A DNA stretch of 56,930 nucleotides from a virus (Duplodnaviria; Caudoviricetes), in IMG/VR virus record IMGVR_UViG_3300034374_008818, positions 1 through 56,930 of that record, one strand, 5' to 3'. The notes below the pieces were generated by a model. The model did not search any database and was not told where the DNA came from. It saw nothing but the letters and a program-made list of their open reading frames with translations. Of the stretch, positions 1 to 51,857 are shown in pieces; within the stretch, counting starts at the first letter, position 1; each line of letters opens with the position of its first letter. The position numbers and the translations under genes are program-made.

Positions 1-6
1 TGAAGA

Positions 7-39
7 ACACAAATGAAAAAAGCCCCCAGTGAAGGGGGC
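7..39 (-). promoter_or_regulatory. Hairpin-N12-TGT element 1 (putative hairpin promoter/terminator)
   Basis: + strand ACA(7-9)-N12-GCCCCC-agtgaa-GGGGGC; 6-nt loop variant; its downstream gene lies outside the window. Confidence 0.6.
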
Positions 40-45
40 AAGGTA

Positions 46-327
46 TCAGGCAGCAGGTGCCATGGAGGGCTTAACTTCCTCCTTATCCTTAAGGAAAGGC
101 AGGTAAGAGCCAGTGGTCTGCTTGAGATGACCACCAGTGGCAAGTAAGCCAGTGGCAAGAGTGCCACCAATGACATAGCCAGGGGCTACAGCAGTAGCAA
201 TGAATGCAGCGCCACCAAAGGTAGCAACACCAGTGCCAACAGCAGCAATGGTGAGTGCATTCTGGTCAGTCAAAAAGTCAAGTGCTGCACCAGAGGAGGT
301 GTCAACAGACTTGTGAATAGCAGCCAT
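46..327 (-). CDS. Hypothetical small membrane protein (93 aa), early array
   Basis: ORF with two Gly/Ala-rich hydrophobic stretches; ATG 327 (MAAIHKS) preferred to the track start at 366. Confidence 0.7.
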   Translation of the reverse strand: MAAIHKSVDTSSGAALDFLTDQNALTIAAVGTGVATFGGAAFIATAVAPGYVIGGTLATGLLATGGHLKQTTGSYLPFLKDKEEVKPSMAPAA

Positions 328-362
328 AGAAATATACAGAGTAAGTGAACAAGCCCATAAGG

Positions 363-393
363 GCACAAGACGACAAAGCCCCCGTTAGGGGGC
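363..393 (-). promoter_or_regulatory. Hairpin-N12 element 2
   Basis: GCA-N12-GCCCCC-gtta-GGGGGC. Confidence 0.6.
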
Positions 394-399
394 GAGAGG

Positions 400-522
400 T
401 CAGATGTCACACGACAGGGGAGTGCCACGCCAAGTCCAGGAGTACCAAGCGTCACCAATGCGTGTGTAGACAAAGTTCTCAGTCAGCCAACGGTCTGCTT
501 CGAACGGTAGAGGATAGTACAT
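400..522 (-). CDS. Micro-protein, 40 aa (MYYPLPFEADRW...SCDI), not in ORF track
   Basis: Hand-translated ATG 522 to TGA 400; fills the space between two hairpin elements; ATG 31 nt from stem. Confidence 0.7.
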   Translation of the reverse strand: MYYPLPFEADRWLTENFVYTRIGDAWYSWTWRGTPLSCDI

Positions 523-537
523 ATGAATATATAGAGA

Positions 538-568
538 ACAACAAAGGACAAAGCCCCCAATAGGGGGC
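538..568 (-). promoter_or_regulatory. Hairpin-N12-TGT element 3
   Basis: ACA-N12-GCCCCC-aata-GGGGGC. Confidence 0.65.
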
Positions 569-579
569 GTATACAGCTG

Positions 580-723
580 TTAGGAGACGTCTGCCCATTC
601 AGTGATGACACCTTCAGTGTCAACAGTCTCAGGGACAGTAAATAGATCTACAGTAACAAGATCATCTGACTGATCGATCATACGTTCCAGGTATTCACGG
701 TAGGCTTCGATGAATGCAGACAT
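580..723 (-). CDS. Acidic micro-protein, 47 aa (MSAFIEAYREYLERM...WADVS), not in ORF track
   Basis: Hand-translated ATG 723 to TAA 580; ATG 33 nt from stem. Confidence 0.7.
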   Translation of the reverse strand: MSAFIEAYREYLERMIDQSDDLVTVDLFTVPETVDTEGVITEWADVS

Positions 724-740
724 CTATAAATATACGAGGA

Positions 741-771
741 ACACTAAAGAATAAAGCCCGCGCTAGCGGGC
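741..771 (-). promoter_or_regulatory. Hairpin-N12-TGT element 4
   Basis: ACA-N12-GCCCGC-gcta-GCGGGC; the loop supplies the TAG stop of the upstream ORF. Confidence 0.7.
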
Positions 772-885
772 AAGGAGTTTCCTCTTAAGAGCTTTCAAAG
801 CAGCCTTACGGGCTCTCATAGCCTGTGGCTTACGCCTTGGCTTCTGTGCTTTCTTAGAGTGATGTTGATAATTAGGGACATTCAT
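763..885 (-). CDS. Basic micro-protein, 40 aa (MNVPNYQHHSKKAQKPRRKPQAMRARK...), not in ORF track
   Basis: Hand-translated; resembles the QHHSKK..KPQA.R small proteins I recall from cyanophages. Confidence 0.75.
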   Translation of the reverse strand: MNVPNYQHHSKKAQKPRRKPQAMRARKAALKALKRKLLAR

Positions 886-905
886 ATCGATAAACGAGAA
901 GAGAC

Positions 906-936
906 ACAAGATCAATAAAAACCCACGATAGTGGGT
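906..936 (-). promoter_or_regulatory. Hairpin-N12-TGT element 5
   Basis: ACA-N12-ACCCAC-gata-GTGGGT. Confidence 0.7.
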
Positions 937-978
937 AAACATAGATAGTTACAATTAATAAGTGTATTAGTTATAACT

Positions 979-2010
979 ATGCCTAGATTTGCCAATCAAC
1001 GGATTGCTAAGTTAGTTGATTATCTTAAAACGCCACACTCAGAGAGACGTATGGTAAATCAAGATGATCCATATTACTGGGGTCAATCAGGTAGAGCTTG
1101 GCGTCAAGAGCAAGATAATTTGCATAGAGAAATACAAACTGGATACCTGAGTCCAAACCACGCTAAAGCAATACTTCAGACTAAATTCGGTCTGTCTAGT
1201 AAAGAAGCCGGTATGTATGTAAAGTGGTCTTTAGATCCAGACACAAAATGGAGTAGACACGTTGGATTTGGTGTTCCGCAAGCAGAAACTTCGGAACATA
1301 TTATGAATGAGATATTGAATTCATCAGGTATTAAGACTAAATTAAACAACCAAGATGATCCTACTGCAACTGATTTAGTTCGTATGGTAGACAACGTAAA
1401 GCAGTATATTGATGTTCAAAACAGAAATACACTGCCAAATATTATTACAGGTGAAGAGATGGGGACATTAATGCCAATCCTAAATACACCTGCAGGGTTA
1501 GCATCTGAAATTTACGATAAAGCATCACCTAATGACACATTTGGAGTTATTAAACAGGAAATTCAACGTAGGTCACCATACGCTCGTCCAGGAAAAATGT
1601 TCGAGAGTAGAGAGGTTGTTGGTCAAAAGTTTGGACGTCCAAGGATGAGAAACGGGGTAGATCAGCGTAAGCCATTTAAAGAATCACACGTTAAAGATGT
1701 AATCATTGGAGGATATAATGATCCACGTGAATTCGAGGCATACTCATTAAGAAAAGGTCACGGGCCATACGATCCCATGATTCCTTCACGAGTGATAGCT
1801 CAAGATCAAGAGAAACTTAGAAATAATCTAATGGGAATGACTAAAGCTGAGTATGAGAAATTAGGAGGAGCAGTCTTAAATGATGACTATAGGAAATCGA
1901 TGGATTTGTATCTCCCCGTCAATATGATCGAGGAGATGTCAAAACCAGATACAGAATATATCGCCAAGGAGGTATTAGAAGCTTTGGATTGGGCTAAACG
2001 GAATAGTTAG
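979..2010 (+). CDS. Hypothetical protein (343 aa), possible PD-(D/E)xK-like fold
   Basis: Long ORF, TACAAT at 950-955; E...ATDL...YIDVQ pattern is only weakly nuclease-like. Confidence 0.75.
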   Translation: MPRFANQRIAKLVDYLKTPHSERRMVNQDDPYYWGQSGRAWRQEQDNLHREIQTGYLSPNHAKAILQTKFGLSSKEAGMYVKWSLDPDTKWSRHVGFGVPQAETSEHIMNEILNSSGIKTKLNNQDDPTATDLVRMVDNVKQYIDVQNRNTLPNIITGEEMGTLMPILNTPAGLASEIYDKASPNDTFGVIKQEIQRRSPYARPGKMFESREVVGQKFGRPRMRNGVDQRKPFKESHVKDVIIGGYNDPREFEAYSLRKGHGPYDPMIPSRVIAQDQEKLRNNLMGMTKAEYEKLGGAVLNDDYRKSMDLYLPVNMIEEMSKPDTEYIAKEVLEALDWAKRNS

Positions 2011-2191
2011 CCTGAATATAATCCCAAAGAAACTGCTGCTTTTCAGTCAAGGCATCGCCATTGTCTAGCGACACACAGATGTCACCAAGGCAGTAGTTGA
2101 CAAAATCTAATACACCATACTCTTTGTCAGGCCGACGATCGGCTTGGCGAGTAAGAAACTCCTTATAAAGAGTGTCGAAATCGTAAGTCAT
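1994..2191 (-). CDS. Hypothetical protein (65 aa), early array
   Basis: ORF track; ATG 2191 (MTYDFD) fits the conserved hairpin spacing. Confidence 0.7.
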   Translation of the reverse strand: MTYDFDTLYKEFLTRQADRRPDKEYGVLDFVNYCLGDICVSLDNGDALTEKQQFLWDYIQANYSV

Positions 2192-2209
2192 AGTAAGAAA
2201 TAAACAATA

Positions 2210-2240
2210 ACACCACACGAAAAACTCCCCGGTAGGGGGG
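2210..2240 (-). promoter_or_regulatory. Hairpin-N12-TGT element 6
   Basis: ACA-N12-CTCCCC-ggta-GGGGGG (one G:T pair). Confidence 0.65.
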
Positions 2241-2252
2241 AGTCTTAGGTTA

Positions 2253-2477
2253 TCAGGCAACAGCCTGCTTCTTAAGGGTAGCCAGGCTACGGTTACGAGT
2301 GAGGGGAGTGAAACCCTTAGCGAGGAGGAAATCCTCGAAGTGAGTCATCTCATAGCCGCTACGGAAGACGTGTTGCTTACCGAAGCCATTCTTGGCAACG
2401 AAGCAGTCGTCGCTAAAGCGGATAAGACGCCAAGAGGCATTACCGCGAGTCAACACAACAGACTTCAAACCAGACAT
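2253..2477 (-). CDS. Hypothetical protein (about 74 aa), early array
   Basis: ORF track; ATG 2477 (MSGLKSV) fits the spacing; ATG 2483 is an alternative. Confidence 0.7.
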   Translation of the reverse strand: MSGLKSVVLTRGNASWRLIRFSDDCFVAKNGFGKQHVFRSGYEMTHFEDFLLAKGFTPLTRNRSLATLKKQAVA

Positions 2478-2494
2478 AATCATAATTGATAACA

Positions 2495-2525
2495 ACACAA
2501 AAGAAAAACACCCGCGTTAGCGGGT
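2495..2525 (-). promoter_or_regulatory. Hairpin-N12-TGT element 7
   Basis: ACA-N12-ACCCGC-gtta-GCGGGT. Confidence 0.7.
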
Positions 2526-2539
2526 GAAGGGGTATACAA

Positions 2540-2761
2540 TTAAGGGATACGGGGGTAGACAGCCTTCCACAAACGAGAGGAAGCCTTACAAGTCTTATCG
2601 GTAATATAGTAAAAACCGCAGCCTATGCCATACACACAGCCGACAAAAGGAAATAGAATCCATCCACCAAGAAGGAGGATAGGAGAGGAAGCAAATAGAA
2701 TTAGCAAGAGGGTTCCAGCCAATTCCTTCTTGCTTGTCTTAGGCTGAATAGAAGTAGTCAT
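2540..2761 (-). CDS. Hypothetical membrane protein (73 aa), early array
   Basis: ORF with long hydrophobic segment; ATG 2761 (MTTSIQ). Confidence 0.7.
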   Translation of the reverse strand: MTTSIQPKTSKKELAGTLLLILFASSPILLLGGWILFPFVGCVYGIGCGFYYITDKTCKASSRLWKAVYPRIP

Positions 2762-2775
2762 AAAGTTAATTGATA

Positions 2776-2806
2776 ACACTAAAGAAATAAACCCACGATA
2801 GTGGGT
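2776..2806 (-). promoter_or_regulatory. Hairpin-N12-TGT element 8
   Basis: ACA-N12-ACCCAC-gata-GTGGGT. Confidence 0.7.
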
Positions 2807-2810
2807 GAAA

Positions 2811-2911
2811 GTAGGTCGCTTACCGGGAAGGAGAAGTAGGTCGCTTCTAGGTCGCTTAATGGTAGGGGGGGGGTAGTAGGTCGCTTACCGGGAAGGAGAA
2901 GTAGGTCGCTT
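2811..2911. repeat. Cluster of five (G)TAGGTCGCTT repeats including a 36-bp direct duplication
   Basis: Copies at 2811, 2836, 2848, 2876, 2901; 2811-2846 is identical to 2876-2911. Confidence 0.95.
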
Positions 2912-2917
2912 ACCAAG

Positions 2918-2945
2918 ACATAAAAAAAAACCCCTGGGGAGGGGT
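2918..2945 (-). promoter_or_regulatory. Variant hairpin element 9 / terminator
   Basis: ACA-N9-ACCCCT-gggg-AGGGGT with poly-A; U-tract on the minus strand. Confidence 0.5.
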
Positions 2946-2951
2946 TATGAG

Positions 2952-3095
2952 TCACTGATGCCAGCGTCGATGATAGTTATCCATAGTAACGAGATTAACG
3001 GCTAGAGACATACCTGCAGTTGGTAGAATTAAAGACGCTGCTATCATCTGATATAACACTAGCTTGCATAAATCATACTTCTGAGAGTCAGACAT
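2952..3095 (-). CDS. Micro-protein, 47 aa, paralog of 3274-3441, not in ORF track
   Basis: Hand-translated; PTAGMSLAVNLVTMDNYHRRW vs PTAGMSLAINCMSYDNYQRRW. Confidence 0.8.
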   Translation of the reverse strand: MSDSQKYDLCKLVLYQMIAASLILPTAGMSLAVNLVTMDNYHRRWHQ

Positions 3096-3111
3096 ATTAA
3101 AGTTATAAACT

Positions 3112-3142
3112 ACATCAATGGATAAAACCCGCGATAGCGGGT
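3112..3142 (-). promoter_or_regulatory. Hairpin-N12-TGT element 10
   Basis: ACA-N12-ACCCGC-gata-GCGGGT. Confidence 0.7.
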
Positions 3143-3147
3143 GATAC

Positions 3148-3215
3148 GTCGCTTGCGAGTCAGTTAGTATGTCGCTTGTAGGTCGCTTAAAGGAAAGAAG
3201 AAGAGTAGGTCGCTT
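3148..3215. repeat. Second cluster of GTCGCTT/GTAGGTCGCTT repeats (4 copies)
   Basis: Copies at 3148, 3171, 3178, 3205. Confidence 0.9.
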
Positions 3216-3221
3216 AGCAAG

Positions 3222-3252
3222 ACACAGTAGTTTAAAACCCCCGTTAGGGGGT
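3222..3252 (-). promoter_or_regulatory. Hairpin-N12-TGT element 11 (heads a non-coding repeat unit)
   Basis: ACA-N12-ACCCCC-gtta-GGGGGT. Confidence 0.7.
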
Positions 3253-3273
3253 GGTAGTCAGTAGTTAATTAAA

Positions 3274-3441
3274 TCAGTCGATGTCACACCAAGTAATGGA
3301 TTCGGGATACCAACGACGTTGATAGTTGTCGTAAGACATACAGTTAATAGCGAGTGACATACCAGCAGTAGGGAATGCTAACGCTAAGCCAGCAATTTGC
3401 TTTCCAACTAACATAAGAGTGTCTGCTTGTTGCGGAGTCAT
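3274..3441 (-). CDS. Small hydrophobic protein (55 aa; 62 aa from ATG 3462)
   Basis: ORF track; ATG 3441 fits the conserved spacing; paralog of 2952-3095. Confidence 0.75.
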   Translation of the reverse strand: MTPQQADTLMLVGKQIAGLALAFPTAGMSLAINCMSYDNYQRRWYPESITWCDID

Positions 3442-3458
3442 AGATTCAATGTAATTTG

Positions 3459-3489
3459 ACATAAAAGAAATAAACCCGCGTTAGCGGGT
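3459..3489 (-). promoter_or_regulatory. Hairpin-N12-TGT element 12
   Basis: ACA-N12-ACCCGC-gtta-GCGGGT. Confidence 0.7.
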
Positions 3490-3496
3490 GAAGTAA

Positions 3497-3664
3497 TTAT
3501 CGGAAGTCGCAGTAACGATAGGGTGAGTCATAGTCAGTCACACGGATTATGTCAGAGTAGTTACGTAACTCATTAACCATTGATGCATACTCATTAGCAT
3601 CATAAGTGTCATAGCCGTGGTTGTAATCACACTCACCTTCACGGATAATGTCGTAATCATTCAT
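3497..3664 (-). CDS. Tyr/Asp-rich micro-protein, 55 aa (MNDYDIIREG...YCDFR), not in ORF track
   Basis: Hand-translated ATG 3664 to TAA 3497; ATG 32 nt from stem. Confidence 0.7.
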   Translation of the reverse strand: MNDYDIIREGECDYNHGYDTYDANEYASMVNELRNYSDIIRVTDYDSPYRYCDFR

Positions 3665-3680
3665 AGTAAAATTACAAATT

Positions 3681-3711
3681 ACACAGTAATCGACACCACT
3701 CGATAGAGTGG
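3681..3711 (-). promoter_or_regulatory. Hairpin-N12-TGT element 13 (first in direction of transcription, no U-tract)
   Basis: ACA-N12-CCACTC-gata-GAGTGG; compensatory stem changes relative to the other copies. Confidence 0.7.
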
Positions 3712-4308
3712 GGGTAGGGGTGGTAGGAGCTGATACCCTCAGCGAGACACAGGGTTACTTAAGATACGCATAAGTCACGACAGGGGTGTGTAACTTCTGA
3801 CGATAGGGGGAGGTAACCTGTGGTTACTGAAGTGAGCCCGAGTACGAAACACACGATACGAATTCGTATCACCACAAAAGATTAATACGAAAGATAATTA
3901 TGTAGTGAAGAATTCGAGTGTGTTAACTCGGGTGAACAAAGAAACAAATGTGAAACTTGAGTGAAACGAAAGTTGAACAACGATTGTTATACACTTCAGC
4001 CGAACACAAAGGCTCACAAACAAACGCTTCACTTCAATTAACATCTGACTTCACAGTAGTTATTTTTTTTGTTTGAGCCCCAGTTCGGGTACAGAGGGTA
4101 TTAAACGTGTCTAAAATTTTGTACCATTTTTTACCCTCTATAGGGGGTTTTTAGTACCCCAAAAGTCGCCACTTTGGGCAATAAGCAGGGCTCCAGTATG
4201 TAGTGTGATTATCTTATTGAGAATCAATAGCAATAGAGGCTGTGATACCCTAGTAAAAGCACCTACTCTCCCTGCTTGTATACGTTGGTTTTAGAGTCGA
4301 ACGCAAAA

Positions 4309-4439
4309 CTACGCTAACTACGGTAGTTTTCTATATACCCCTTTTTTAATTCACCCCTAGCCCCTACTAGTGAATTTTTTTAGAAAGGGTTAGATAAGAA
4401 GGTAGTTAGTGTAGCATCGTAGTTTTTGTAGAATAAATA
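4309..4439. repeat. 130-bp CTAC/GTAG inverted-repeat element, copy 1
   Basis: CTACGCTAACTAC(4309-4321)...GTAGTTAGTGTAG(4402-4414) around an AT-rich core; homologous to 49333-49459. Confidence 0.85.
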
Positions 4440-4461
4440 GAACATCAACATTTAAAAAATA

Positions 4462-5907
4462 ATGGGCAAGTTTACTCCGGGTTATATCACTGTCCCAGGT
4501 AAAGGTAGAAGGTATCGTGATGCTGATGGTAATTATTTCGGCATTGAGCCTGGATTTGGCATGCAGACTATGTTGGAATTTTTCGATCCAACTGTTAAAG
4601 GTCAACCAAGCTACGGTGCCTATCAAAACTCAACACCGAGCACATCGCGTCGTTATAATGATTCTGAAAGTAAAATTAAAGCGATTCAATCAAACGGTTC
4701 AGCACTGATCAACCGTTCTGGTGTCACTCCTGTAGATGGAAGTTTTCGTAAAGCTGTAGAGCAAGGTACTGACGGTAATCGCCCTTCAAGTGCTGGTAAC
4801 GCTGGTTCCGGCAACGCTGGTTCCAGTAACGGTGGTTCCGGTAACGGTGGTTCCGGTAACGGTAAGGGGTCTGCACCAGCACCTTCAAGCAACGGTGGCA
4901 ACACTGGACGTAACGACACTCGTGTAAATAACGGTGGAGTAGTTCAATCTGGCACCAACATGGGTCCAAAGCTTCCCACGTTAGATGAACTGAGTGCTTA
5001 TGCAGGTGCACCAGTTGCTAACTTTGCTGGCCCATCGTTCCCCACACAGCCAGCAACCAACCGCATCACTGCTTCTTACCCCAACACCACAGGTGATGGT
5101 ATGGAAACAGTGGACCTTGGCGGGGGCAATATCTACAAAGCTGACCGCAATGGTCGCATCATCGGTGCAGCAAACGGAAATGAGGGCGATAAGTTCGAAG
5201 GTTCCCAGCTGCCTACTACAAAAGGCAACCCATTTAGCGGAAATCCTGCCGATAGTCCGCAGTTTAGGTCCGATTTACCCGGAATTATTGGTCAATCCTA
5301 CGACAGTTACCACACTAATAACGGATTAAACGCCGCATCCAACGTTTCAGGTAAAGGAACCCCCGCATTTAGCGGCAAAGAAGAGCAAATTAAGGGCGCA
5401 TCTAGCCGTCCTAGCGGCTCATTAGCTGATTCTCTTAGCGATGGAAGCGATTTACGGTTCAATTCCGCCAATTACAAGCCATCTGAAGGCTTCAAGGTGT
5501 CTGATGGTGCATCATCCTCGGAAGAAATGCGTCGTCGGCGTGCATTCTTAGATGCACCGGACAGTATGAGCGGAATCAAGCGCGTTGAAGCTGGTCTTGG
5601 CTACCAAGTTCTTAATGGTAAAGCATATATGAACATCAATGGTGAGATCAAAGAGGGTGATGTAAGCGAAGTCCGTAAAATCAAGAATGCTGCACCAGGT
5701 CAAGCGCAAGGATTGAAGGATGCTTACGTTGAATCCATTATAGGCAAGACTAAAGAGAACAATACTTCCGAGAATCCTCCGTTAACTCCAGCAGCTGCCC
5801 AAAATCCCAGTGTTCAAAACAATGAACTCTCGCCATTTATACAATCACTGCCTGGCAACAAGAAATCAAACCTTCCAAACCAGGTAATGGGCATCGGAAG
5901 TATCTGA
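4462..5907 (+). CDS. Gly/Ser/Asn-rich hypothetical protein, probable internal virion protein
   Basis: 481-aa ORF, low complexity, first gene of the + strand block, TAGAAT at 4429. Confidence 0.75.
   Translation: MGKFTPGYITVPGKGRRYRDADGNYFGIEPGFGMQTMLEFFDPTVKGQPSYGAYQNSTPSTSRRYNDSESKIKAIQSNGSALINRSGVTPVDGSFRKAVEQGTDGNRPSSAGNAGSGNAGSSNGGSGNGGSGNGKGSAPAPSSNGGNTGRNDTRVNNGGVVQSGTNMGPKLPTLDELSAYAGAPVANFAGPSFPTQPATNRITASYPNTTGDGMETVDLGGGNIYKADRNGRIIGAANGNEGDKFEGSQLPTTKGNPFSGNPADSPQFRSDLPGIIGQSYDSYHTNNGLNAASNVSGKGTPAFSGKEEQIKGASSRPSGSLADSLSDGSDLRFNSANYKPSEGFKVSDGASSSEEMRRRRAFLDAPDSMSGIKRVEAGLGYQVLNGKAYMNINGEIKEGDVSEVRKIKNAAPGQAQGLKDAYVESIIGKTKENNTSENPPLTPAAAQNPSVQNNELSPFIQSLPGNKKSNLPNQVMGIGSI
4801..4860 (+). 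repeat. Four tandem 15-bp units encoding [AG]GS[GS]N
   Basis: gctggttccggcaac / gctggttccagtaac / ggtggttccggtaac x2. Confidence 0.9.
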
Positions 5908-16279: not shown

Positions 16280-16975
16280 ATGAGTCAGCAGCGGATGGCA
16301 GGAAGCCAAGAATTTCAGCAAGGTGTGAAAAAAGCTTCTCAGCCTATGGGTGGACGTGAGCATATTAATTCAAGTCCCAAGCTGTTTGGCAGTACAGGCT
16401 TAAAAGGCGGCGATGCATGGAATACTCAAATGCAACGAGAGAGTCAGGCACAAGATAGCTCTGCAGCAACTGGTTCCTACGGTGCAGCGAACCTTGCTAA
16501 TTACATTAATGTAAGTAAGACCGCTACTCAAGGTAATCAAGATTTTTCAATTAATACTGGCAATAAATATGTGAACAACGCACGTTCGCAAAGTAAGACT
16601 AACAAGAAAGATAACGAAGGCTTTGCAATGAACACGACAAAACAGTTCGTGAATTATGCAGACCAGATGCGTGATTCTAATAGTGCAAAAGCTAAGCAGT
16701 TTGCACAATCAACAACGCAAAGCTATATGGATATGAATAAGGCCAACCAGAGTACAAACGTTGCTGCCCTTGATAAACATATCCGTAGTCAACCTATTGT
16801 CGATAATGCATACGGCAAGATGCAAGGTCTAAACACTTACGGTGATATGTACCGGTATGGACGTGAAGAGCTGCCTGCATTTAAGAAGCCTGAACCACAG
16901 AAGGGAGTTGAGAAGCCCAATTTCCAAGATATGTATGACAAGTCTCGTGATGACATCAACAATATTAATATCTAA
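16280..16975 (+). CDS. Gln/Asn-rich hypothetical protein
   Basis: 231-aa ORF; N-terminal RMAG motif. Confidence 0.7.
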   Translation: MSQQRMAGSQEFQQGVKKASQPMGGREHINSSPKLFGSTGLKGGDAWNTQMQRESQAQDSSAATGSYGAANLANYINVSKTATQGNQDFSINTGNKYVNNARSQSKTNKKDNEGFAMNTTKQFVNYADQMRDSNSAKAKQFAQSTTQSYMDMNKANQSTNVAALDKHIRSQPIVDNAYGKMQGLNTYGDMYRYGREELPAFKKPEPQKGVEKPNFQDMYDKSRDDINNINI

Positions 16976-17012
16976 AAGTCGATTACACTAATTAAAGGTA
17001 AGAAGGCTAGGA

Positions 17013-19265
17013 ATGACAAACTCTATACAATCAGAATTTAAACAAATCCTCACTGCAGCAAAAGAACGAAGAGGGGATTTATCTGTTGACAGCATGATTG
17101 TGTCTTCGCATTTAGCGCAGATGCGTATGTTTATGCTGCGTCGTGGTATTGAGTTTTATGCAGAACAAGATAGCTTTGGTAAACGTCGTCAGTTTATTGC
17201 TGATGTCTGTGAGCATAATATGCTCGACATGAAGCTTGATAGCATTATTGATTACTTCTTATGTGATGGTCAAGGTCTTTTCTACTTCAGACCGTCAGGT
17301 GAAGACTACCAGCTGTTATTCTTCCCAAAAGATAGCTACCGTGCTTATCGCAATCAAAAGAATGAAATTGACAGCATCGTACTTGTCTACAGTTTTGCTG
17401 TAAAACAAAATAAAGGTTTAGATGCCTACGCTGAGACTAACGAGCGTGGCGGTAAAAAGAAATACATCCGATTGAAGGTCTATAAAGACCGTATTGAACA
17501 AACAATCTCCAACGAGAAGATTGAGTTTGACGACACTCCAGGAGTAATGCCAGGACATATGCCTGGTATGACAGAAACACTTACTAACAGCTTAGGTTTT
17601 ATTCCAGCTGTCGAAGTGTTTAATCATATGGATTGCACAGGTGAAGCTACTGGTAATGGTGAGTTTGACTGGTTAGCACACCAGATTTTGTATCACGATG
17701 AGCTGACCCGCAACATCCGTAAAAACCTCAAGTTCTTTGGTAACCCCACTCTGGTATCAAGCCGTCCTCGTCACGACCTGATTGAAAGCGGTGATGAGAA
17801 CACCTTCCGCCCAACCATCAGTTCACAAGCTGGATTTGCACCAATGACTGGTGGGTCTATGCATAGTACCCGCGTCAGTCAACCATTTGGTAAGAGTTCA
17901 ATTGACGGACAGATTAAAGTTCCGCGTGTGATTGCAAACCTTGAGCCTACAGACCGTGTGTCTTATATGACACCTGACAGTGTCTCTGGTGACCAGAACT
18001 TATACGTCAAAAACTATAGATCCGAAATTCGTTTAGCACTCGGCGGTGTTGATGACCTTGACATTAACCTTGCCAGCACTGCTTATGAAATCAAAACACT
18101 TTACGGTCGTGTAGCTGCAACAGCAGAGAAAAAAGCCAAAGCACTGTTTAACTACGGTCTATGTCGTCTTTTCTCAATGATGATTATGCATGAAGAAGAG
18201 CTGTTCCGTAAATCGTTTGCAGTAGCTATTGGATTGCAAGAACCAGTTATGCCTCTACCTGAGGAATATGCAAATGACCCTGAAGCATTTCAGAAAGAAT
18301 ATGAGAAATATCAGAAGAAACATCAGAAGTTTATTAAAGAAAGAGAAGATAGTATCCGTGCTACACTTGAGTCAGGCAATATGCCTATTGGAGTTGTTGG
18401 ATTGATTCCTGACGGTAGCTCAAAAGTTAGCTGGCGTTGGATGGGTCAAGTCTTCGAAGACAGTCCCGACGACGTGCTACAACACAGCATCGTTGTTCGT
18501 AACCTTCAAGAATTAGGTGTTGATTCAATTGAAGCACTTAAGTACTTGTTCCCAGACAAAACGGAAGAAGAGAGGGCAGCAATGCTTTCTGGCTATCCGT
18601 TCAGAATGGTTCAACAAACACAACAGTCTTTAAACCAGTTCATTGGATTACTCGGCAACCTCTATCAGTTGCCACATCCACAGACGCCAGATATGCCATT
18701 AGCGTCTGATCCGAATCTTGATATCACAGGATTCTTATATAGATCACTCGAATTTTTACGTAAGGAGTTAAGTTACAGTGGAAGTTACAAGCCAGACAGC
18801 GACGGCCCCAGTGTCAGCGCCCTCAGCGATGCCGACGAGCGTCGCGCAGCCCTCGGCCTCCCCGTCCGCGATGAGCCAACCGTCGACCTCCCAGGCTTAT
18901 CAGGCGGCCCCGGTAGCACAACCCCAGGTACCAACTTACCAACCGGCAGCGGCCCAGCAGGCTTCGGCACCTCAGGGGAATCCGTGGCAGGAAGCGTTCC
19001 AGGCGCTCTCCGCAAGTTTGAATACAAGCAGCCCCTCCCCAGCCCAGGTTCAACAATCGGCGTACCAGACACCAACGCCACAGGCGCTTCAACAAGCAAG
19101 CTGGGCTTCAGCCCCTCAGCAGCAATGGGCTCCTACGGCGCAGCCGACTTACAGTCCCCAAGCTTCAACCCAAGCCTACTCAACCGCCCAGGCTCCAATG
19201 CAAGGGCAGGCTCAAGAAGCAGTCAGCGACGCGTATCTAAGTCAAATCAGCGATCAAAGTCTTGA
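17013..19265 (+). CDS. Portal protein (probable) with long low-complexity C-terminal extension
   Basis: Position after TerL; TNSLGFIPAVEVFN...GEFD portal-like motif; size. Confidence 0.75.
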   Translation: MTNSIQSEFKQILTAAKERRGDLSVDSMIVSSHLAQMRMFMLRRGIEFYAEQDSFGKRRQFIADVCEHNMLDMKLDSIIDYFLCDGQGLFYFRPSGEDYQLLFFPKDSYRAYRNQKNEIDSIVLVYSFAVKQNKGLDAYAETNERGGKKKYIRLKVYKDRIEQTISNEKIEFDDTPGVMPGHMPGMTETLTNSLGFIPAVEVFNHMDCTGEATGNGEFDWLAHQILYHDELTRNIRKNLKFFGNPTLVSSRPRHDLIESGDENTFRPTISSQAGFAPMTGGSMHSTRVSQPFGKSSIDGQIKVPRVIANLEPTDRVSYMTPDSVSGDQNLYVKNYRSEIRLALGGVDDLDINLASTAYEIKTLYGRVAATAEKKAKALFNYGLCRLFSMMIMHEEELFRKSFAVAIGLQEPVMPLPEEYANDPEAFQKEYEKYQKKHQKFIKEREDSIRATLESGNMPIGVVGLIPDGSSKVSWRWMGQVFEDSPDDVLQHSIVVRNLQELGVDSIEALKYLFPDKTEEERAAMLSGYPFRMVQQTQQSLNQFIGLLGNLYQLPHPQTPDMPLASDPNLDITGFLYRSLEFLRKELSYSGSYKPDSDGPSVSALSDADERRAALGLPVRDEPTVDLPGLSGGPGSTTPGTNLPTGSGPAGFGTSGESVAGSVPGALRKFEYKQPLPSPGSTIGVPDTNATGASTSKLGFSPSAAMGSYGAADLQSPSFNPSLLNRPGSNARAGSRSSQRRVSKSNQRSKS

Positions 19266-20733: not shown

Positions 20734-21672
20734 ATGTCGCAACCAAAGATTTCAGGTGACTCAGTTCGTGCTTATCTACGTGATATCGGACGCATTCCAC
20801 TTCTAGAGCACGATGAAGAGATTCTCTTGGGTCGTCAAGTTCAGCGGTTAATGGAAATCAAAGAACAGAAAGAATCCCTTAACCTTGATAATGAAGGGTT
20901 AGCTGCCGCTAGTGATATCACATTAAAACAACTTAAGCGGGAGATTCGTGAAGGTGAGAAAGCCAAAGACAAGATGGTCACGGCAAACTTACGGCTCGTC
21001 GTTTCTGTGGCGAAGAAATACACTAAACGAAATATGGAACTCCTCGACATTATTCAAGAGGGGACCATTGGCCTCGTTCGCGGTGTGGAAAAATTTGATC
21101 CGGGTCGTGGTTATAAGTTTAGTACTTACGCTTATTGGTGGATTCGTCAAGGGATCACTCGCGCAATCGCTGAAAAATCGAGGGCGATTAGGTTACCAAT
21201 TCACGTTACAGAAAACCTCAACCGCCTTAAGAAAGCCCAGCGTGAACTGAGTCAGATGAATGGTTATATGCCAAGCATCCATCAACTCTCAGATTACCTT
21301 GAACTGTCAGTAGATGACATCAAAGATTTAATGTGTAAAGCACGTCAGCCTACATCTCTAGAAATCAAGATTGGAGAAAATCGTGACACAGCGCTGATTG
21401 ATCTTTTAGAAGATGAGACACAGCTTCCAGAGATGCTGCTTGAAAAAGCTTTGATCAAGGAAGATATGCACAGTATGATTCGAGATTTACCTGACCTGCA
21501 AGCAGCAGTAATCAGTATGCGGTATGGCATTGGTGATGAGCTGTTTGAAGCTATGTCAATGACAGCCATTGGCCAAGTATTAAATATGAGCCGTGACAGA
21601 GTGCGTACTCTGGAGCATAAAGCAATTAAAACTTTAAAAGAGCGTGGTGATTTAGTGAGTGAATATCTTTAA
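20734..21672 (+). CDS. rpoD: RNA polymerase sigma factor, RpoD/SigA family (cyanobacterial group 2-like)
   Basis: DSVRAYLRDIGRIPLL, ANLRLVVSVAKKY, DIIQEG.IGL.R.VEKFDP.RGYKFSTYAYWWIRQ, region 4 SRDRVR. Confidence 0.97.
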   Translation: MSQPKISGDSVRAYLRDIGRIPLLEHDEEILLGRQVQRLMEIKEQKESLNLDNEGLAAASDITLKQLKREIREGEKAKDKMVTANLRLVVSVAKKYTKRNMELLDIIQEGTIGLVRGVEKFDPGRGYKFSTYAYWWIRQGITRAIAEKSRAIRLPIHVTENLNRLKKAQRELSQMNGYMPSIHQLSDYLELSVDDIKDLMCKARQPTSLEIKIGENRDTALIDLLEDETQLPEMLLEKALIKEDMHSMIRDLPDLQAAVISMRYGIGDELFEAMSMTAIGQVLNMSRDRVRTLEHKAIKTLKERGDLVSEYL

Positions 21673-25430: not shown

Positions 25431-25458
25431 AAGAGCCTCTAAATGGGGCTCTTTTTTT
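25431..25458 (+). terminator. Rho-independent terminator
   Basis: AAGAGCCTC-taaat-GGGGCTCTT followed by T-run. Confidence 0.85.
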
Positions 25459-25493
25459 GTGTCTATAATATGGGGTATAGGTGATAACTAAAC

Positions 25494-25925
25494 ATGAGTA
25501 ATCTATTTCAAGACACAAAGACAGGAAAACTGGTTGAATTTATCAGCAAGCACGATAAAGAATTTGCAATGGTGCGTGATTCTGGCGGCAACATTACTTA
25601 TTTAACACTTGAGCAGTTAGTGCCATATGACAAAGACAAGGGACGTTTATCTAAAGTGACTGCACCTCAGATTGCACCACCTCCAGAAGAAAAAGCTCCT
25701 AATCGCGTTGTGCCTCTTGAGGATGTGCGTTTGAATCTGAATACTGCTACTGCAGAAGTCATTCAAAAACGTCTGCCTGGAGTTGGGTATGCTACTGCTA
25801 AAAAAATTGTAGAGATGCGAATGTCACTGTCAGGTGAACGTTTTAATAATCTAAAACAACTGGAGAATATCCCACGAGTCAACTGGGAACAGCTAATTGA
25901 AGAAGACCTTATCTTTATTAGTTAA
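25494..25925 (+). CDS. Helix-hairpin-helix (ComEA-like) DNA-binding protein
   Basis: LNLNTATAE....LPGVGYATAKKIVEMR...F..LKQLENIPRV. Confidence 0.85.
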   Translation: MSNLFQDTKTGKLVEFISKHDKEFAMVRDSGGNITYLTLEQLVPYDKDKGRLSKVTAPQIAPPPEEKAPNRVVPLEDVRLNLNTATAEVIQKRLPGVGYATAKKIVEMRMSLSGERFNNLKQLENIPRVNWEQLIEEDLIFIS

Positions 25926-25952
25926 ACTAGTAATACAGTAATTACGTCGATT

Positions 25953-26288
25953 ATGGCTAGCAGTATTGAAGATATTCTGTATGCAAAAGCATTATCAGAT
26001 GCACAATCAAAGCCTGACCCTGCTGCAGCCATGGGCACCGGTGCTGCATTAGGTGCAGTTCCTGGCTTCATGCTTGGTGGCGGAATTCGTGGTCGTATGG
26101 CAGGCGGTTTAGTTGGAGCAATCCTTGGCGGTGGCTTAGGGCTAGGCGTACGTCAAATGATGGTCAAAGAATCACCTGCTGCAAATATGCTTGCCAAGTT
26201 GCAATCAACAGGTGAGCTAGGTGCTATGGATCGTTTCCAGCTGCAAAGTGTACTGAAAGACATCTACAATAACCCCGGTACTCTGTGA
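25953..26288 (+). CDS. Glycine-zipper hypothetical protein
   Basis: GAALGAVPG...RMAGGLVGAILGGGLG. Confidence 0.7.
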   Translation: MASSIEDILYAKALSDAQSKPDPAAAMGTGAALGAVPGFMLGGGIRGRMAGGLVGAILGGGLGLGVRQMMVKESPAANMLAKLQSTGELGAMDRFQLQSVLKDIYNNPGTL

Positions 26289-26785
26289 TGCAGTTAGACG
26301 ATTATCTAAAGTCTAAAGTACGCTATCACCTTGGATTTAATTCAGGTGCACAAATCCCTGCCGGTGACCGTGCACGATTAGAAGAAGCCATGGCATTAAT
26401 ACCAGATGAGCTCTGGTATAACGAAATTGTCTACCACATCAAACGTTGTGACATTGCATGGAAAGCAAGTGCCGCAATTCCTGACGATTACTTTGATCAA
26501 GATGGCAGCCGTATTCTAAACCCATCAAGACAAGAAGTAATCGCTGGTGATGTTCAGCGGACAATCAATACATCTGACCCACTTAAAGGCGATGAATACT
26601 TCCGTGAAATCTACCTTAGAGAGGTGGACAGGCTGGCTGAAACTCTCTATGTTCCTAACTATCGTCGTCCTGAAGTACGTCGGTATGCGTTTGAGAGAGC
26701 GGGAAGCGAATTTATTATGGCCGTCCCTGGACCTGCAGATACAGCAGTTGGCTCAAGAATGATGCTTAGCTATAACTGGCGTTAA
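26285..26785 (+). CDS. Hypothetical protein, candidate head-tail adaptor
   Basis: 166 aa, KSKVRYHLG start, position after capsid genes. Confidence 0.55.
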   Translation: MMQLDDYLKSKVRYHLGFNSGAQIPAGDRARLEEAMALIPDELWYNEIVYHIKRCDIAWKASAAIPDDYFDQDGSRILNPSRQEVIAGDVQRTINTSDPLKGDEYFREIYLREVDRLAETLYVPNYRRPEVRRYAFERAGSEFIMAVPGPADTAVGSRMMLSYNWR

Positions 26786-27807: not shown

Positions 27808-28275
27808 ATGGCCGCTACTTCTACTAATAAGCAACCGCTTTTGGTCGATCGCGTAATGCATAATGTGATCGATCTGAACACAGCAGCTGTTGGTGCAATC
27901 GACGTGGTAGGAACAAACACAGCACTGCTGCTTGTCGATGGCTCTCAGTCTGATGGGTGCATTATTGAAGACATTTATGCAATCTCACGTGGTACAGTTG
28001 AGCACACAATTAACCTGTACATCAGTAATGCATCTGACTACTTGCGTCCTGGCGAAGGTATGTTCATTGGAAGCTTTAAATCAGCCACCACATCCGGTAA
28101 TGTGACACGTTGGGAAGAGATGCCTAAAATCCTTGCTCCCGTCCCTCAGACAAGCACAGAAGCTCAATTCCGTGCGCTCTACATTCCGAAAGGAAGGACA
28201 CTGTGGGCAGGTCGTGAAAGTGATACTGTCGTTAACGATGGCCCGTTGTTGGGTGCACAAGGCGGCTGGTACTAA
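27808..28275 (+). CDS. Structural protein (tail-associated, probable)
   Basis: 155 aa, beta-rich, context. Confidence 0.6.
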   Translation: MAATSTNKQPLLVDRVMHNVIDLNTAAVGAIDVVGTNTALLLVDGSQSDGCIIEDIYAISRGTVEHTINLYISNASDYLRPGEGMFIGSFKSATTSGNVTRWEEMPKILAPVPQTSTEAQFRALYIPKGRTLWAGRESDTVVNDGPLLGAQGGWY

Positions 28276-48452: not shown

Positions 48453-48480
48453 ACCGAGGGTTCGAATCCCACCCTCTCCG
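48453..48480 (+). mobile_element. attP core: 3' end of a tRNA (Ser-like)
   Basis: ACCGAGGGTTCGAATCCCACCCTCTCCG = T-arm plus acceptor 3' strand; no 5' half upstream; 72 nt before the integrase. Confidence 0.8.
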
Positions 48481-51612: not shown

Positions 51613-51637
51613 AAAAAAAAACCTCCTGTTAAGGAGG
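51613..51637 (-). terminator. Rho-independent terminator of the DUF4278-like gene
   Basis: Minus strand CCTCCT-taac-AGGAGG followed by T9. Confidence 0.8.
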
Positions 51638-51646
51638 CTATGAAAG

Positions 51647-51829
51647 TTATTTTATGTAAGTGTGACCTCGATAAACGAAGGTGCCGTGTGCAGTTTCACA
51701 CGGACGATTAGGTACATAGTGAACACCACGATAAGCAGTGTCGTGAAGCTTTGCGCGTTCGAACTCTTTACGAGCACGAATCATTTCTTGGCGAGCCTTT
51801 TCAAGACCCATTACTTGAACAGTAGTCAT
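51647..51829 (-). CDS. DUF4278-like small protein
   Basis: Two YRG..Y motifs (AYRGVHY, VYRGHTY); GGAGG RBS. Confidence 0.8.
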   Translation of the reverse strand: MTTVQVMGLEKARQEMIRARKEFERAKLHDTAYRGVHYVPNRPCETAHGTFVYRGHTYIK

Positions 51830-51857
51830 TTGGAAACCTCCTAGTGTTAGAAAACTT

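What the first reader, a model, noticed from the sequence alone, without database searches (positions are those of the whole stretch)
7..3711. Thirteen fixed-geometry hairpin-N12-TGT elements, one per micro-gene: candidate template-strand hairpin promoter system
Seen: + strand consensus ACA-N12-(6-bp GC stem)-GNTA-(stem). Exact ACA-N12 geometry at 7, 538, 741, 906, 2210, 2495, 2776, 3112, 3222, 3459 and 3681; GCA at 363; a 9-nt spacer at 2918. Ten of 13 loops are GNTA. Stem sequence varies (GCCCCC, GCCCGC, ACCCAC, ACCCGC, CTCCCC, CCACTC) but pairing is kept, so structure rather than sequence is conserved. In nine units a minus-strand ATG lies 17-23 nt after the TGT. That is the leader length implied by this phage's -10 promoters, which puts TGT near +1 and the hairpin at -13 to -28, mostly without a TANNNT box. 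The most upstream copy (3681) has no U-tract and no gene to terminate. Known: coliphage N4 virion RNAP recognises stable C-GNA-G hairpins on the template strand, and here the GNNA loop is on the template strand. Inference: a structure-recognising early transcription system (unknown RNAP or activator), possibly also terminating the previous unit. No N4-type vRNAP is visible in this window.
Basis: partly seen in the sequence, partly recalled or inferred. Interest (0 to 1): 0.92.

Follow-up and report, generated by a model that had tools for sequence, protein, structure and literature searches.

The report
Stop-and-start joints between cyanophage genes
Thirteen small hairpins between the tiny early genes of an uncultured cyanobacterial virus look like transcription stop signals, each joined at a fixed distance to a short conserved mark that heads the next gene and fits no known promoter type.

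Summary
All 13 hairpins exist. Measured from the 6-bp stem core, 11 of 13 have ACA-N12 and 12 of 13 have CA (TG in gene sense) at the same place.

On the gene-sense (minus) strand each unit reads: stop codon, GC hairpin, T-rich 12 nt, TG(T), a leader of about 20 nt without a Shine-Dalgarno, then ATG.

Five relatives keep this geometry: G001 and G005-G008 (major capsid protein 88-99% identical among the 80 kept loci). They extend the mark to TGTGTTCTTTA. The genes between the joints are unrelated, and indels between close relatives begin or end at joints.

The same hairpin type without the mark ends operons. So the hairpin plus T-run is an intrinsic terminator, and the TG box is a separate start-of-unit signal.

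No phage RNA polymerase was found in the window or in a complete relative, and the geometry is not that of N4. No sigma-70 promoter fits.

The closest known kind is the PeSL cassettes of T4-type phages. What reads the box is unknown: re-initiation, cleavage or a BoxA-like signal are all open. Earlier follow-up notes of this scan describe like cassettes on other DNA.

The parts
3681..3711 (-). Joint 1, the most upstream. Hairpin CCACTC-TATC-GAGTGG, a 12-nt spacer poor in T, then TGT. ATG at 3664.
   Evidence: RNA hairpin -7.9 kcal/mol; 4 T in the first 8; T13 to ATG 19 nt; model R1 35.3 bits.
3459..3489 (-). Joint 2. ACCCGC-TAAC-GCGGGT, TTATTTCTTTTA, TGT. ATG at 3441.
   Evidence: 20 nt; 38.7 bits.
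3222..3252 (-). Joint 3. ACCCCC-TAAC-GGGGGT, then TGT. It heads a non-coding unit of AAGCGACCTAC repeats (3143-3236).
   Evidence: no ORF; 38.9 bits.
3112..3142 (-). Joint 4. ACCCGC-TATC-GCGGGT, then TGT. ATG at 3095.
   Evidence: 19 nt; 42.6 bits.
2918..2946 (-). Joint 5, the outlier. AACCCC-TCCCCA-GGGGTT, T7, and TGT after only 9 nt. It heads the second repeat unit (2807-2928).
   Evidence: 26 bits.
2776..2806 (-). Joint 6. ACCCAC-TATC-GTGGGT, TTATTTCTTTAG, TGT. ATG at 2761.
   Evidence: 17 nt; 45.2 bits.
2495..2526 (-). Joint 7. CACCCGC-TAAC-GCGGGTG (7 bp), T-rich spacer, TGT. ATG at 2483 or 2477.
   Evidence: 48.2 bits.
2210..2243 (-). Joint 8. ACTCCCC-CCTACC-GGGGAGT, then TGT. ATG at 2191.
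   Evidence: 21 nt; 37.6 bits.
906..936 (-). Joint 9. ACCCAC-TATC-GTGGGT, TTTTATTGATCT, TGT. ATG at 885.
   Evidence: 23 nt; 38.3 bits.
741..771 (-). Joint 10. GCCCGC-TAGC-GCGGGC, TTTATTCTTTAG, TGTTCC. ATG at 723.
   Evidence: 20 nt; 46.8 bits.
538..568 (-). Joint 11. GCCCCC-TATT-GGGGGC, TTTGTCCTTTGT, TGTTCTC. ATG at 522.
   Evidence: 18 nt; 43.2 bits.
363..393 (-). Joint 12. GCCCCC-TAAC-GGGGGC, then TGC, then a second small hairpin (GCCC-TTAT-GGGC) and a 38-nt leader. ATG at 327. G001, G005, G006, G007 and G008 each have a copy with a like second hairpin and a 36-38-nt leader.
7..39 (-). Joint 13. GCCCCC-TTCACT-GGGGGC, TTTTTTCATTTG, TGTTCTTCA. The contig ends here.
   Evidence: 34 bits.
46..3664 (-). 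Ten small minus-strand ORFs of 40-93 codons, each begun 14-38 nt after a TG mark, none with a Shine-Dalgarno: 46-327, 400-522, 580-723, 763-885, 1994-2191, 2253-2483, 2540-2761, 2952-3095, 3274-3441, 3497-3664.
   Evidence: No Pfam family at E <= 0.01 for 10 of 10. None has a tblastn match in G001 or S-EIV1.
3712..4460 (.). Divergent non-coding control region upstream of joint 1. Long blocks are identical to relative L004/G001. The best sigma-70-like box pair, TTAACA-18-CATAAT, reads towards the array (3926 to 3897, minus strand).
   Evidence: 66% mean column identity, many identical runs; 10 of 12 matches.
51622..51637 (-). Plain terminator of the same hairpin type (CCTCCT-TAAC-AGGAGG, then T9) without the TG mark at 13-14. 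It lies 9 nt after the stop of the riboswitch-controlled 60-codon gene.
   Evidence: 22.9 bits.

Best explanation
Each element is a two-part joint between expression units of the phage's variable early region.

Part 1 is the 6-7-bp GC hairpin with the T-rich run behind it. It is an intrinsic terminator or attenuator, and a 3'-end hairpin, for the unit upstream.

Part 2 is the TG at positions 13-14 after the stem (TGT here, TGTGTTCTTTA in relatives). It is a separate signal that marks where the next unit begins. A leader of about 20 nt without a Shine-Dalgarno and then the ATG, or a non-coding RNA, follows it.

I think the TG most likely marks the 5' end of the next message. That end could be made by host RNA polymerase starting anew at an unconventional promoter that overlaps the terminator (my odds about 0.3). 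It could instead be made by cleavage of read-through RNA in the U-rich stretch beside the hairpin (about 0.25).

The repeated joints also serve as homology for recombination, so single genes are gained, lost and swapped between them, as with PeSL cassettes of T4-type phages.

Shown: the anatomy, the covariation, conservation of the geometry in five relatives, gene turnover at joints, and the absence of a recognisable phage polymerase.
For: Terminator module:
- Gene-sense strand: stop codon, a few nt, then a hairpin of -7.9 to -13.3 kcal/mol followed by TTT.
- 9 of 13 pass a generic terminator scan (18 sites against 3.3 +/- 1.8 in shuffles).
- The same hairpin type with the same TAAC loop, but without the mark, ends operons: window 51622 after the riboswitch gene; G001 2295 between convergent genes; G001 51139.

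Start module:
- TG at 13-14 in 12 of 13 copies here, and in 10-15 hairpins per relative.
- Information peaks at those positions.
- In G001 the box TGTG[TA]TC occurs 12 times between 43.7 and 52.6 kb, always 10-12 nt after a hairpin. Its 14 other occurrences in that genome show no hairpin or T-run before them.
- The mark also heads non-coding units.
- Late genes use TAnAAT(AG) boxes starting 23-43 nt (mostly 27-35) before the ATG. A start about 7 nt after the hexamer (textbook rule) then gives leaders of similar length.
- The first joint of the window's array keeps hairpin, spacing and mark although its T-run is poor.

Cassette behaviour:
- 0 of 12 ORFs in 1-4044 have a tblastn match in G001, against 44 of 66 elsewhere in the window.
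- Between G007 and G008 (95-99.6% identical in shared blocks), 4 of 4 rearrangements in the array begin or end within about 25 nt of a joint hairpin. Two are an extra unit flanked by two copies of the joint.

No private polymerase:
- PF00940 rings in 0 of 3 records, including the complete G001.
- The largest G001 ORF is 723 aa.
- 20 window ORFs and 10 G001 ORFs scanned against PHROGs, and 30 window ORFs against Pfam, gave no RNA polymerase and one sigma-70-family sigma factor.
Against: - No RNA data: no listed sequencing run holding this DNA is on record as RNA. No 5' or 3' end is shown.
- Nothing between hairpin and ATG (32-38 nt) fits a sigma-70-type promoter. TAnnnT sits in the spacer of only 2 of 13 copies, and the conserved A-11 and T-7 are missing (my reading).
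- Thirteen to about twenty-four terminators in series would starve distal genes unless they are leaky, antiterminated or followed by re-initiation. Which of these holds is unknown.
- The box beyond TGT is poorly kept in this window, so part of its conservation in relatives could be gene conversion between copies.
- The loop is G-N-N-A on the template strand in most copies. That is the very stable DNA mini-hairpin form (abstract of PMC13037366 in the listing). A plain RNA terminator does not explain it.
Confidence: 0.55

Rival explanations
1. One reading: a template-strand DNA hairpin promoter of the N4 kind. A phage-encoded (perhaps virion-borne) RNA polymerase, or an unknown activator, recognises the extruded hairpin and starts at TG.
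For: - The template (+) strand loop is G-N-T-A in 9 of 13 copies, and 4 of 13 read GCGNNAGC, the stable DNA mini-hairpin form (abstract of PMC13037366 in the listing).
- Stems covary.
- The start base would be G (template C), as N4 requires +1C (passages of PMC4496689).
- The first joint keeps hairpin and spacing without a good T-run.
- 28% of this genome is missing.
Against: - The N4 hairpin spans -17 to -5 with a 3-nt loop and specific -11, -10 and -8 bases. Here the hairpin lies at -13 to -28 with a 4-nt loop.
- The complete relative G001 carries at least 20 joints but has no ORF above 723 aa and no PF00940 match.
- The window's 1141-aa protein is fibre-like and absent from G001.
- PDB sequence searches of four large unknown proteins gave nothing at E < 0.2.
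- The same hairpins with the same loops act as plain operon-end terminators.
Confidence: 0.06
2. No promoter in the joints. One early promoter in the control region drives the whole array through leaky terminators. A host endoribonuclease such as RNase E cuts the U-rich single strand beside the hairpin. The upstream message is left with a protective 3' hairpin and the next one with a defined short 5' leader, as RNase III does in the T7 early region.
For: - A sigma-70-like box pair (TTAACA-18-CATAAT, 10 of 12) lies about 190 nt upstream of joint 1, inside a conserved non-coding region.
- The joints hold no promoter boxes.
- Cyanobacterial RNase E cuts single-stranded stretches with A at -3/-4 and U at +1 to +3, mainly +2 (abstract and passages of PMC8682795). 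The G001 spacer ...CATT/GTG fits this loosely.
- It uses only host enzymes, which suits joints described in other cyanophage lineages in earlier notes of this scan.
Against: - The invariant letters are T and G, not the A/U signature of RNase E.
- It requires every hairpin to be a weak terminator, though several have 6 GC pairs and 6-7 T in 8.
- No RNA data.
Confidence: 0.25
3. The box is a BoxA-like RNA signal. After each terminator, the nascent RNA loads host NusB-S10 and the other Nus factors on the polymerase. Read-through complexes then resist the next terminators, or translation of the next gene is tuned.
For: - In G001 and G005-G008 the box reads TG-T/A/C-TCTTT-A/G.
- The E. coli BoxA consensus is UGCUCUUUAACA and the B. 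subtilis one AUGAUCUUUGAAA, the latter placed right behind a small hairpin (passages of PMC13753749).
- The gamma-proteobacterial consensus is GYTCTTTAANA, and such boxes occur within 50 bp of start codons (passages of PMC5725501).
- The rrn antitermination complex interferes with intrinsic termination.
Against: - In this window 0 of 13 boxes match the 8-nt core GYTCTTTA perfectly and only 2 match 7 of 8 (my count).
- A 10-11-nt spacer separates hairpin and box, unlike the rrn leaders.
- One or two such sites per operon suffice in known systems.
- I could not obtain a cyanobacterial BoxA sequence from any call.
- The T-rich composition raises chance resemblance.
Confidence: 0.1
4. The TG mark has no expression role of its own. 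It is part of the terminator (a downstream or pause element: a hairpin 11-13 nt before a pyrimidine-G step is the geometry of hairpin-stabilised pauses, which I state from recall). Or it is only conserved homology that lets the joints recombine.
For: - All intergenic boxes in G001 are tied to a hairpin.
- Joints are recombination seams.
- Copies within one genome are nearly identical beyond TG, which suggests gene conversion.
Against: - Operon-end terminators of the same type lack the mark.
- The distance from the mark to the ATG is also constrained (mode 19-21 nt in six genomes).
- TG is kept in this window even where the rest of the box has drifted.
Confidence: 0.12

Closest known systems
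PeSL (promoter-early stem-loop) cassettes of T4-type phages (Arbiol et al. 2010, PMC2839356; Comeau et al. 2014, PMC4122927; passages read)
   Same: A small composite stop-plus-start unit repeated before nearly every small orphan gene of a hyperplastic early region. The stem-loop works as terminator or attenuator. The repeats are the seams where single genes are inserted, deleted or replaced.
   Different: PeSLs carry near-consensus sigma-70 -35/N17/-10 boxes and a Shine-Dalgarno, and the stem-loop mostly lies between or over those boxes. Here no sigma-70 boxes fit, there is no Shine-Dalgarno, and the hairpin sits at a fixed 12-13 nt before a TG mark.
Intrinsic (Rho-independent) terminators
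   Same: A GC-rich stem-loop directly followed by a T-run, a few nt after a stop codon, on the coding strand.
   Different: A terminator needs no conserved TG at +13/14, no fixed distance to the next ATG and no conserved loop. The most upstream copy has a poor T-run.
Coliphage N4 early promoters read by virion RNA polymerase (review PMC4496689, passages read)
   Same: A small GC-rich hairpin upstream of the start. Its stem sequence is free as long as it pairs. The loop on the template strand begins with G and ends with A. The start base is G.
   Different: N4 has three promoters only, a hairpin at -17 to -5, a 3-nt loop, specific -11, -10 and -8 contacts and a giant virion polymerase. None of these is met here.
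BoxB-BoxA antitermination leaders of rrn operons and lambdoid nut sites (PMC13753749, PMC5725501, PMC3177189; passages read)
   Same: A small hairpin followed by a U-rich TG-N-TCTTT-R word in nascent RNA, read by host factors. The word in the relatives' joints fits this pattern.
   Different: The window's own boxes mostly do not fit. The spacer is 10-11 nt. There are dozens of copies per genome, each behind a terminator.
Pre-early promoter and terminator motif sets of Thermus phage P23-45 (Chaban et al. 2024, PMC10770324; Results section, part 1 of 2, read)
   Same: Early genes next to one genome end are punctuated by phage-specific start and stop motifs.
   Different: Those motifs are read by two phage two-barrel polymerases carrying DxDxD. 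I found no such protein here: the only conserved DxDxD is DTDVD in a 595-aa structural-module protein.

Membership tests
Intrinsic terminator | GC-rich stem-loop followed at once by a U/T-run on the transcribed sense strand | tested here: met
   9 of 13 pass the scan. 13 of 13 have a hairpin of -7.9 to -13.3 kcal/mol. T count in the first 8 nt is 4-7.
Intrinsic terminator | Lies downstream of a gene end | tested here: met
   The stop codon lies a few nt before the hairpin in the copies that follow an ORF. Exceptions are joint 1 (no gene upstream) and the two joints that follow repeat units.
Intrinsic terminator | RNA 3' ends 7-9 nt after the stem | not testable with these tools
   No listed holder of this DNA is on record as RNA.
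N4-type hairpin promoter | A virion single-subunit RNA polymerase gene | tested here: not met
   PF00940 rings in 0 of 3 records, including the complete G001; that search also rang in 0 of its 14 control genomes. Largest ORFs are 1141 aa (fibre-like) and 723 aa in G001.
N4-type hairpin promoter | Hairpin at -17 to -5 with a 3-nt loop centred at -11 | tested here: not met
   The hairpin ends 12-13 nt before TG and the loop is 4 nt in 10 of 13, against the N4 description.
N4-type hairpin promoter | Primary transcripts start at fixed distance from the hairpin | not testable with these tools
   No RNA data.
PeSL cassette | A stem-loop joined to a sigma-70-like early promoter (-35, N17, -10) | tested here: not met
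   Sigma-70-like sites in 1-4600 number 8 against 9.0 +/- 3.5 in shuffles, and none lies in a joint. No conserved A-11/T-7.
PeSL cassette | Repeated before orphan ORFs of a hyperplastic region | tested here: met
   13 joints in 3.7 kb. 0 of 12 ORFs there have a match in G001, against 44 of 66 elsewhere.
PeSL cassette | Indels and replacements between close relatives map to the cassettes | tested here: met
   4 of 4 rearrangements between G007 and G008 map to joints. For the window itself there is only a weak hint from one low-depth contig (table 5c).
BoxA (NusB-S10 site) | The 8-nt core GYTCTTTA of the consensus quoted | tested here: not met
   Window: 0 of 13 perfect and 2 of 13 with 7 of 8 (my count). 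The core is present in about 7 G001 joints and in many of G005-G008.
Integron attC site | Paired R and L boxes, 57 nt or more, read by an integron integrase (features recalled, from no call) | tested here: not met
   The hairpin is 16-20 nt. Outer complementarity in the window equals the shuffled control (-5.4 against -5.39 kcal/mol).

The most novel reading that the evidence does not exclude
The hairpin plus TG box is a new, structure-dependent class of transcription start signal in cyanophages. Host RNA polymerase would read it, perhaps with the phage's own sigma factor or with a small early or injected factor. The terminator hairpin of one unit would itself be part of the promoter of the next, so that stop and restart are physically coupled.
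Probability: 0.2. Interest if true: 0.85.

Novelty: new variant of a known kind. Interest (0 to 1): 0.55.

Why it matters
If the TG box proves to be a start signal, it is a bacterial-virus promoter type with no -10 or -35 logic, tied to a terminator at fixed geometry. It would belong to an abundant phage clade: 423 viral contigs encode a relative of the capsid protein, and the best 80 are 88-99% identical.

It would also show how these phages make each orphan early gene a self-contained, swappable unit, extending the PeSL idea beyond T4-type phages.

If it is a cleavage or Nus-factor site instead, it gives a compact natural insulator and processing module for cyanobacteria. In any case it gives annotators exact gene starts for small genes without a Shine-Dalgarno.

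Tried and rejected
- DNA similarity of 1-4200 to GenBank phages: no match.
- Relatives through the 481-aa protein: none.
- Metagenome scan with alignment A1: only three short contigs, with no joints upstream.
- Prophage search in genomes with A1: none.
- The pattern ACA-N12-ACCCGCGNTAGCGGGT in viral contigs hit two other contigs (G003, G004) that show only generic terminator-like hits.
- Host through the tRNA-like 3' fragment: 17 exact matches, none titled as a cyanobacterium. The host stays inferred from the S-EIV1 kinship and the glutamine riboswitch.
- RNA evidence: no RNA holder listed. The four runs laid were contigs and showed no ends. They gave only one low-depth contig that joins 393 to 775 with 18 other letters, and one that holds joint 2494-2529 between other sequence.
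- S-EIV1 itself has no such array (one hit of 14.8 bits).
- Ideas dropped by eye, for lack of consistent spacing or bases: an extended -10 (TGTGn) reading; a -35-like TTG reading; leaderless starts from TAnnnT boxes just before the ATG; an upstream mini-ORF starting at GTG; pairing of GTGATC with the 16S 3' tail.
- An outer helix GAACACA...TGTGTTC enclosing the hairpin is real in G005-G008 (duplex energy -6.8 to -9.8 against -5.4 to -6.4 kcal/mol shuffled). It is absent in the window and G001, so it is not general.
- Integron attC reading: rejected (see membership test).
- ESM Atlas gave no lead for the 595-aa and 750-aa proteins. PDB sequence searches gave nothing.
- I ran no structure prediction, so a cryptic small polymerase is not excluded.
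- Literature: (S-EIV1, cyanophage) held 30 papers, 15 listed. One search (cyanophage, early genes, stem-loop, terminator, intergenic) held 32, 12 listed. I saw titles and abstract starts only; none described these joints. Searches gave no cyanobacterial BoxA sequence. Supplements were closed and may hold motif tables (PMC10770324, PMC5725501) that I did not see.

Full report
WHAT THE WINDOW IS. The window is a whole IMG/VR viral contig of 56,930 bases, linear, with CheckV completeness 72%. Its portal-like protein (17013-19265) is 47% identical to that of Synechococcus phage S-EIV1, a 79-kb genome. A glutamine riboswitch sits at 51856-51908 (Rfam RF01739, 46 bits). So this is a cyanophage of the S-EIV1 lineage. 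It encodes a full sigma-70-family sigma factor at 20734-21672, with regions 1.2, 2, 3 and 4. It also has a family-A DNA polymerase interrupted by a homing endonuclease, and an integrase. Most genes lack a Shine-Dalgarno. Late genes carry a TAnAAT(AG) box that starts 23-43 nt, mostly 27-35, before the ATG.

THE OBSERVATION. On the minus strand, which is the sense strand of the small genes, each unit reads: stop codon, a few nt, a 6-7-bp GC stem with a 4-nt loop (10 of 13), 12 T-rich nt, TGT, 14-20 more nt, then ATG.
- Eleven of 13 have TGT exactly 12 nt after the 6-bp core, and 12 of 13 have TG there. The chance of 11 of 13 is about 2e-16, given the local TGT frequency of 94 in 3709.
- Loops are strictly GNTA on the + strand in 9 of 13, or 10 if the GGTA inside a 6-nt loop is counted.
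- Over 29 copies from the window and G001, 97.7% of cells pair against 76.9% in shuffles, and 5 of 6 pairs change on both sides.

RELATIVES. The 750-aa protein next to the control region led to an 80,431-base contig, G001, which CheckV rates 100% complete. A hairpin scan found the same joints in G001 from 43.7 to 56 kb and at 62.1 and 62.5 kb. Model R1 found further copies from 43.3 kb on. In gene sense they read hairpin, TTTATTTCATT, GTGTTCTTTA, about 12 nt, ATG.

The major capsid protein has relatives in 423 viral contigs; the best 80 are 88-99% identical. Of the five longest records searched with covariance model R1, four had 7-10 matches clustered in one region: G005, G006, G007 and G008. 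G009, a 40% fragment, had none.

In all of them TG lies at 13-14 after the stem in 10-11 hairpins per genome, and the commonest distance from T13 to the ATG is 19-21 nt. S-EIV1 itself lacks the array.

TWO MODULES. Hairpins of the same build, with the same TAAC loop, stand at true operon ends without the TG mark:
- window 51622, 9 nt after the stop of the riboswitch-controlled gene and followed by T9;
- G001 2295, between convergent genes;
- G001 51139.

The converse does not occur. In G001 all 12 copies of TGTG[TA]TC between 43.7 and 52.6 kb lie 10-12 nt after a hairpin, and the other 14 copies in that genome show no hairpin or T-run before them. So the hairpin plus T-run behaves as an ordinary intrinsic terminator: 9 of 13 pass a generic scan, with 18 sites against 3.3 +/- 1.8 in shuffles. 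The TG box is an added signal that goes with the start of the next unit. It also heads non-coding units: the two AAGCGACCTAC repeat units here and at least two stretches without an ORF in G001. It is therefore not only a translation signal.

CASSETTE BEHAVIOUR. None of the 12 ORFs in 1-4044 has a tblastn match in G001 at E <= 1e-4, against 44 of 66 ORFs elsewhere, yet both genomes use the same joints. G007 and G008 are 95-99.6% identical in shared blocks. All four differences in the array begin or end within about 25 nt of a joint hairpin: one replacement between two joints, one 185-nt indel right behind a joint, and two extra units flanked by two copies of the joint where the other phage has one copy. 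This is the behaviour described for PeSL cassettes of T4-type phages (passages of PMC2839356 and PMC4122927).

WHAT READS THE TG BOX. No sigma-70-type promoter fits in the 32-38 nt between hairpin and ATG, and the spacer lacks the conserved A-11 and T-7.

I found no phage polymerase:
- PF00940 rings in none of three records, but that search also rang in none of its 14 control genomes, so it is weak on its own.
- G001 has no ORF above 723 aa.
- The window's 1141-aa protein is fibre-like and absent from G001.
- PHROGs and Pfam scans gave no polymerase.
- DxDxD occurs in four ORFs of 200 aa or more. Only DTDVD, in a 595-aa protein of the structural module, is shared by the window and G001.
- PDB sequence searches and the Atlas gave nothing.

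The N4 geometry (hairpin at -17 to -5, 3-nt loop, specific -11, -10 and -8 bases; passages of PMC4496689) is not met. The N4-like reading is therefore unlikely, though a small cryptic enzyme or factor is not excluded, and 28% of this genome is missing.

THREE LEADS REMAIN.
(a) Re-initiation by host polymerase at an unconventional start. In favour: T13-G14 is a pyrimidine-purine step, the leader length equals that implied by the -10 boxes of late genes, the first joint keeps hairpin and spacing with a weak T-run, and a series of 13 to about 24 terminators needs some way to feed distal genes.
(b) Cleavage of read-through RNA beside the hairpin, for instance by RNase E. Its cyanobacterial signature is A at -3/-4 and U at +2 in single-stranded RNA (PMC8682795). 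A sigma-70-like box pair in the conserved control region could drive the whole array.
(c) A BoxA-like signal. In the relatives the box reads TG-N-TCTTT-R, the pattern of E. coli UGCUCUUUAACA and B. subtilis AUGAUCUUUGAAA, the latter placed behind a small hairpin (PMC13753749; PMC5725501). In this window, however, 0 of 13 boxes match the 8-nt core. I rate this low for the window.

ONE UNEXPLAINED POINT. The loop is G-N-N-A on the template strand in most copies, including the plain terminators. Four copies read GCGNNAGC, the very stable DNA mini-hairpin form (abstract of PMC13037366 in the listing). Nearest-neighbour DNA energies for the two strands differ by only 0.1-0.4 kcal/mol, and those parameters carry no bonus for such loops.

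VERDICT. Earlier follow-up notes of this scan report like cassettes in other S-EIV1-like and marine cyanophage genomes with the same open question. I reached the PeSL comparison before reading them. I took from them only the lead to the P23-45 paper.

Noticed in passing
window 3712-4460; L004 6640-7440; S-EIV1 near 44.3 kb: A non-coding control region of about 450 nt between the divergent gene blocks has long runs identical to G001. Among them are the palindrome GATACGAATTCGTATC (3853-3872) and GTTTAATACCCTCTGTACC. S-EIV1 carries a like GATACGAATTCGGATC. It may be an origin, a packaging site or a regulatory hub.
   Followed up: partly
window 2807-2928 and 3143-3236 (minus strand): Two non-coding units hold 8 copies (one mismatch or fewer) of AAGCGACCTAC, against 0.83 expected by chance. 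The word occurs nowhere else in the window and in none of the other loci then held. Each unit is headed by a joint and closed by the next hairpin.
   Followed up: partly
G005-G008 joints (loci L116-L119): In these four relatives GAACACA lies 3-7 nt before the hairpin, often as TGAACACA with the stop codon. It is the inverted repeat of the TGTGTTC box behind the hairpin, so the joint is a larger imperfect palindrome. The window and G001 lack this outer pairing.
   Followed up: partly
G001 43.7-52.6 kb; L116-L119: The relatives' box TG-T/A/C-TCTTT-A/G matches the BoxA words of E. coli and B. subtilis quoted in PMC13753749 and PMC5725501.
   Followed up: partly
window 979-2010 (+): A 343-codon AT-rich gene lies on the opposite strand inside the array, with its own TACAAT box 31 nt before the ATG. 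It has no Pfam or PHROG family and no match in G001 or S-EIV1. It looks like an inserted foreign unit.
   Followed up: partly
window 51622-51908 (minus): A glutamine riboswitch (RF01739, 46 bits), a 60-codon gene (homolog in G001, 57% identity) and a hairpin-T9 terminator form a self-contained unit.
   Followed up: partly
window 53079-55962 (minus): The family-A DNA polymerase is in two ORFs (53079-54398 and 55336-55962) with a homing-endonuclease-like ORF (54792-55277) between them.
   Followed up: no
window 48453-48480: The tRNA-like 3' fragment before the integrase gene has 17 exact matches in the species-representative genome set, none titled as a cyanobacterium. It does not identify the host.
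   Followed up: partly
G001 25453-26392 (minus): The sigma-factor homolog of G001 aligns in two pieces that abut with a shift of frame. This may be a frameshift or an assembly error.
   Followed up: no
window 28275-30062 (+); G001 16442-18214: A conserved 595-aa protein of the structural module (58% identical between the two phages) carries a conserved DTDVD. It has no family, no PDB match and no Atlas lead.
   Followed up: partly
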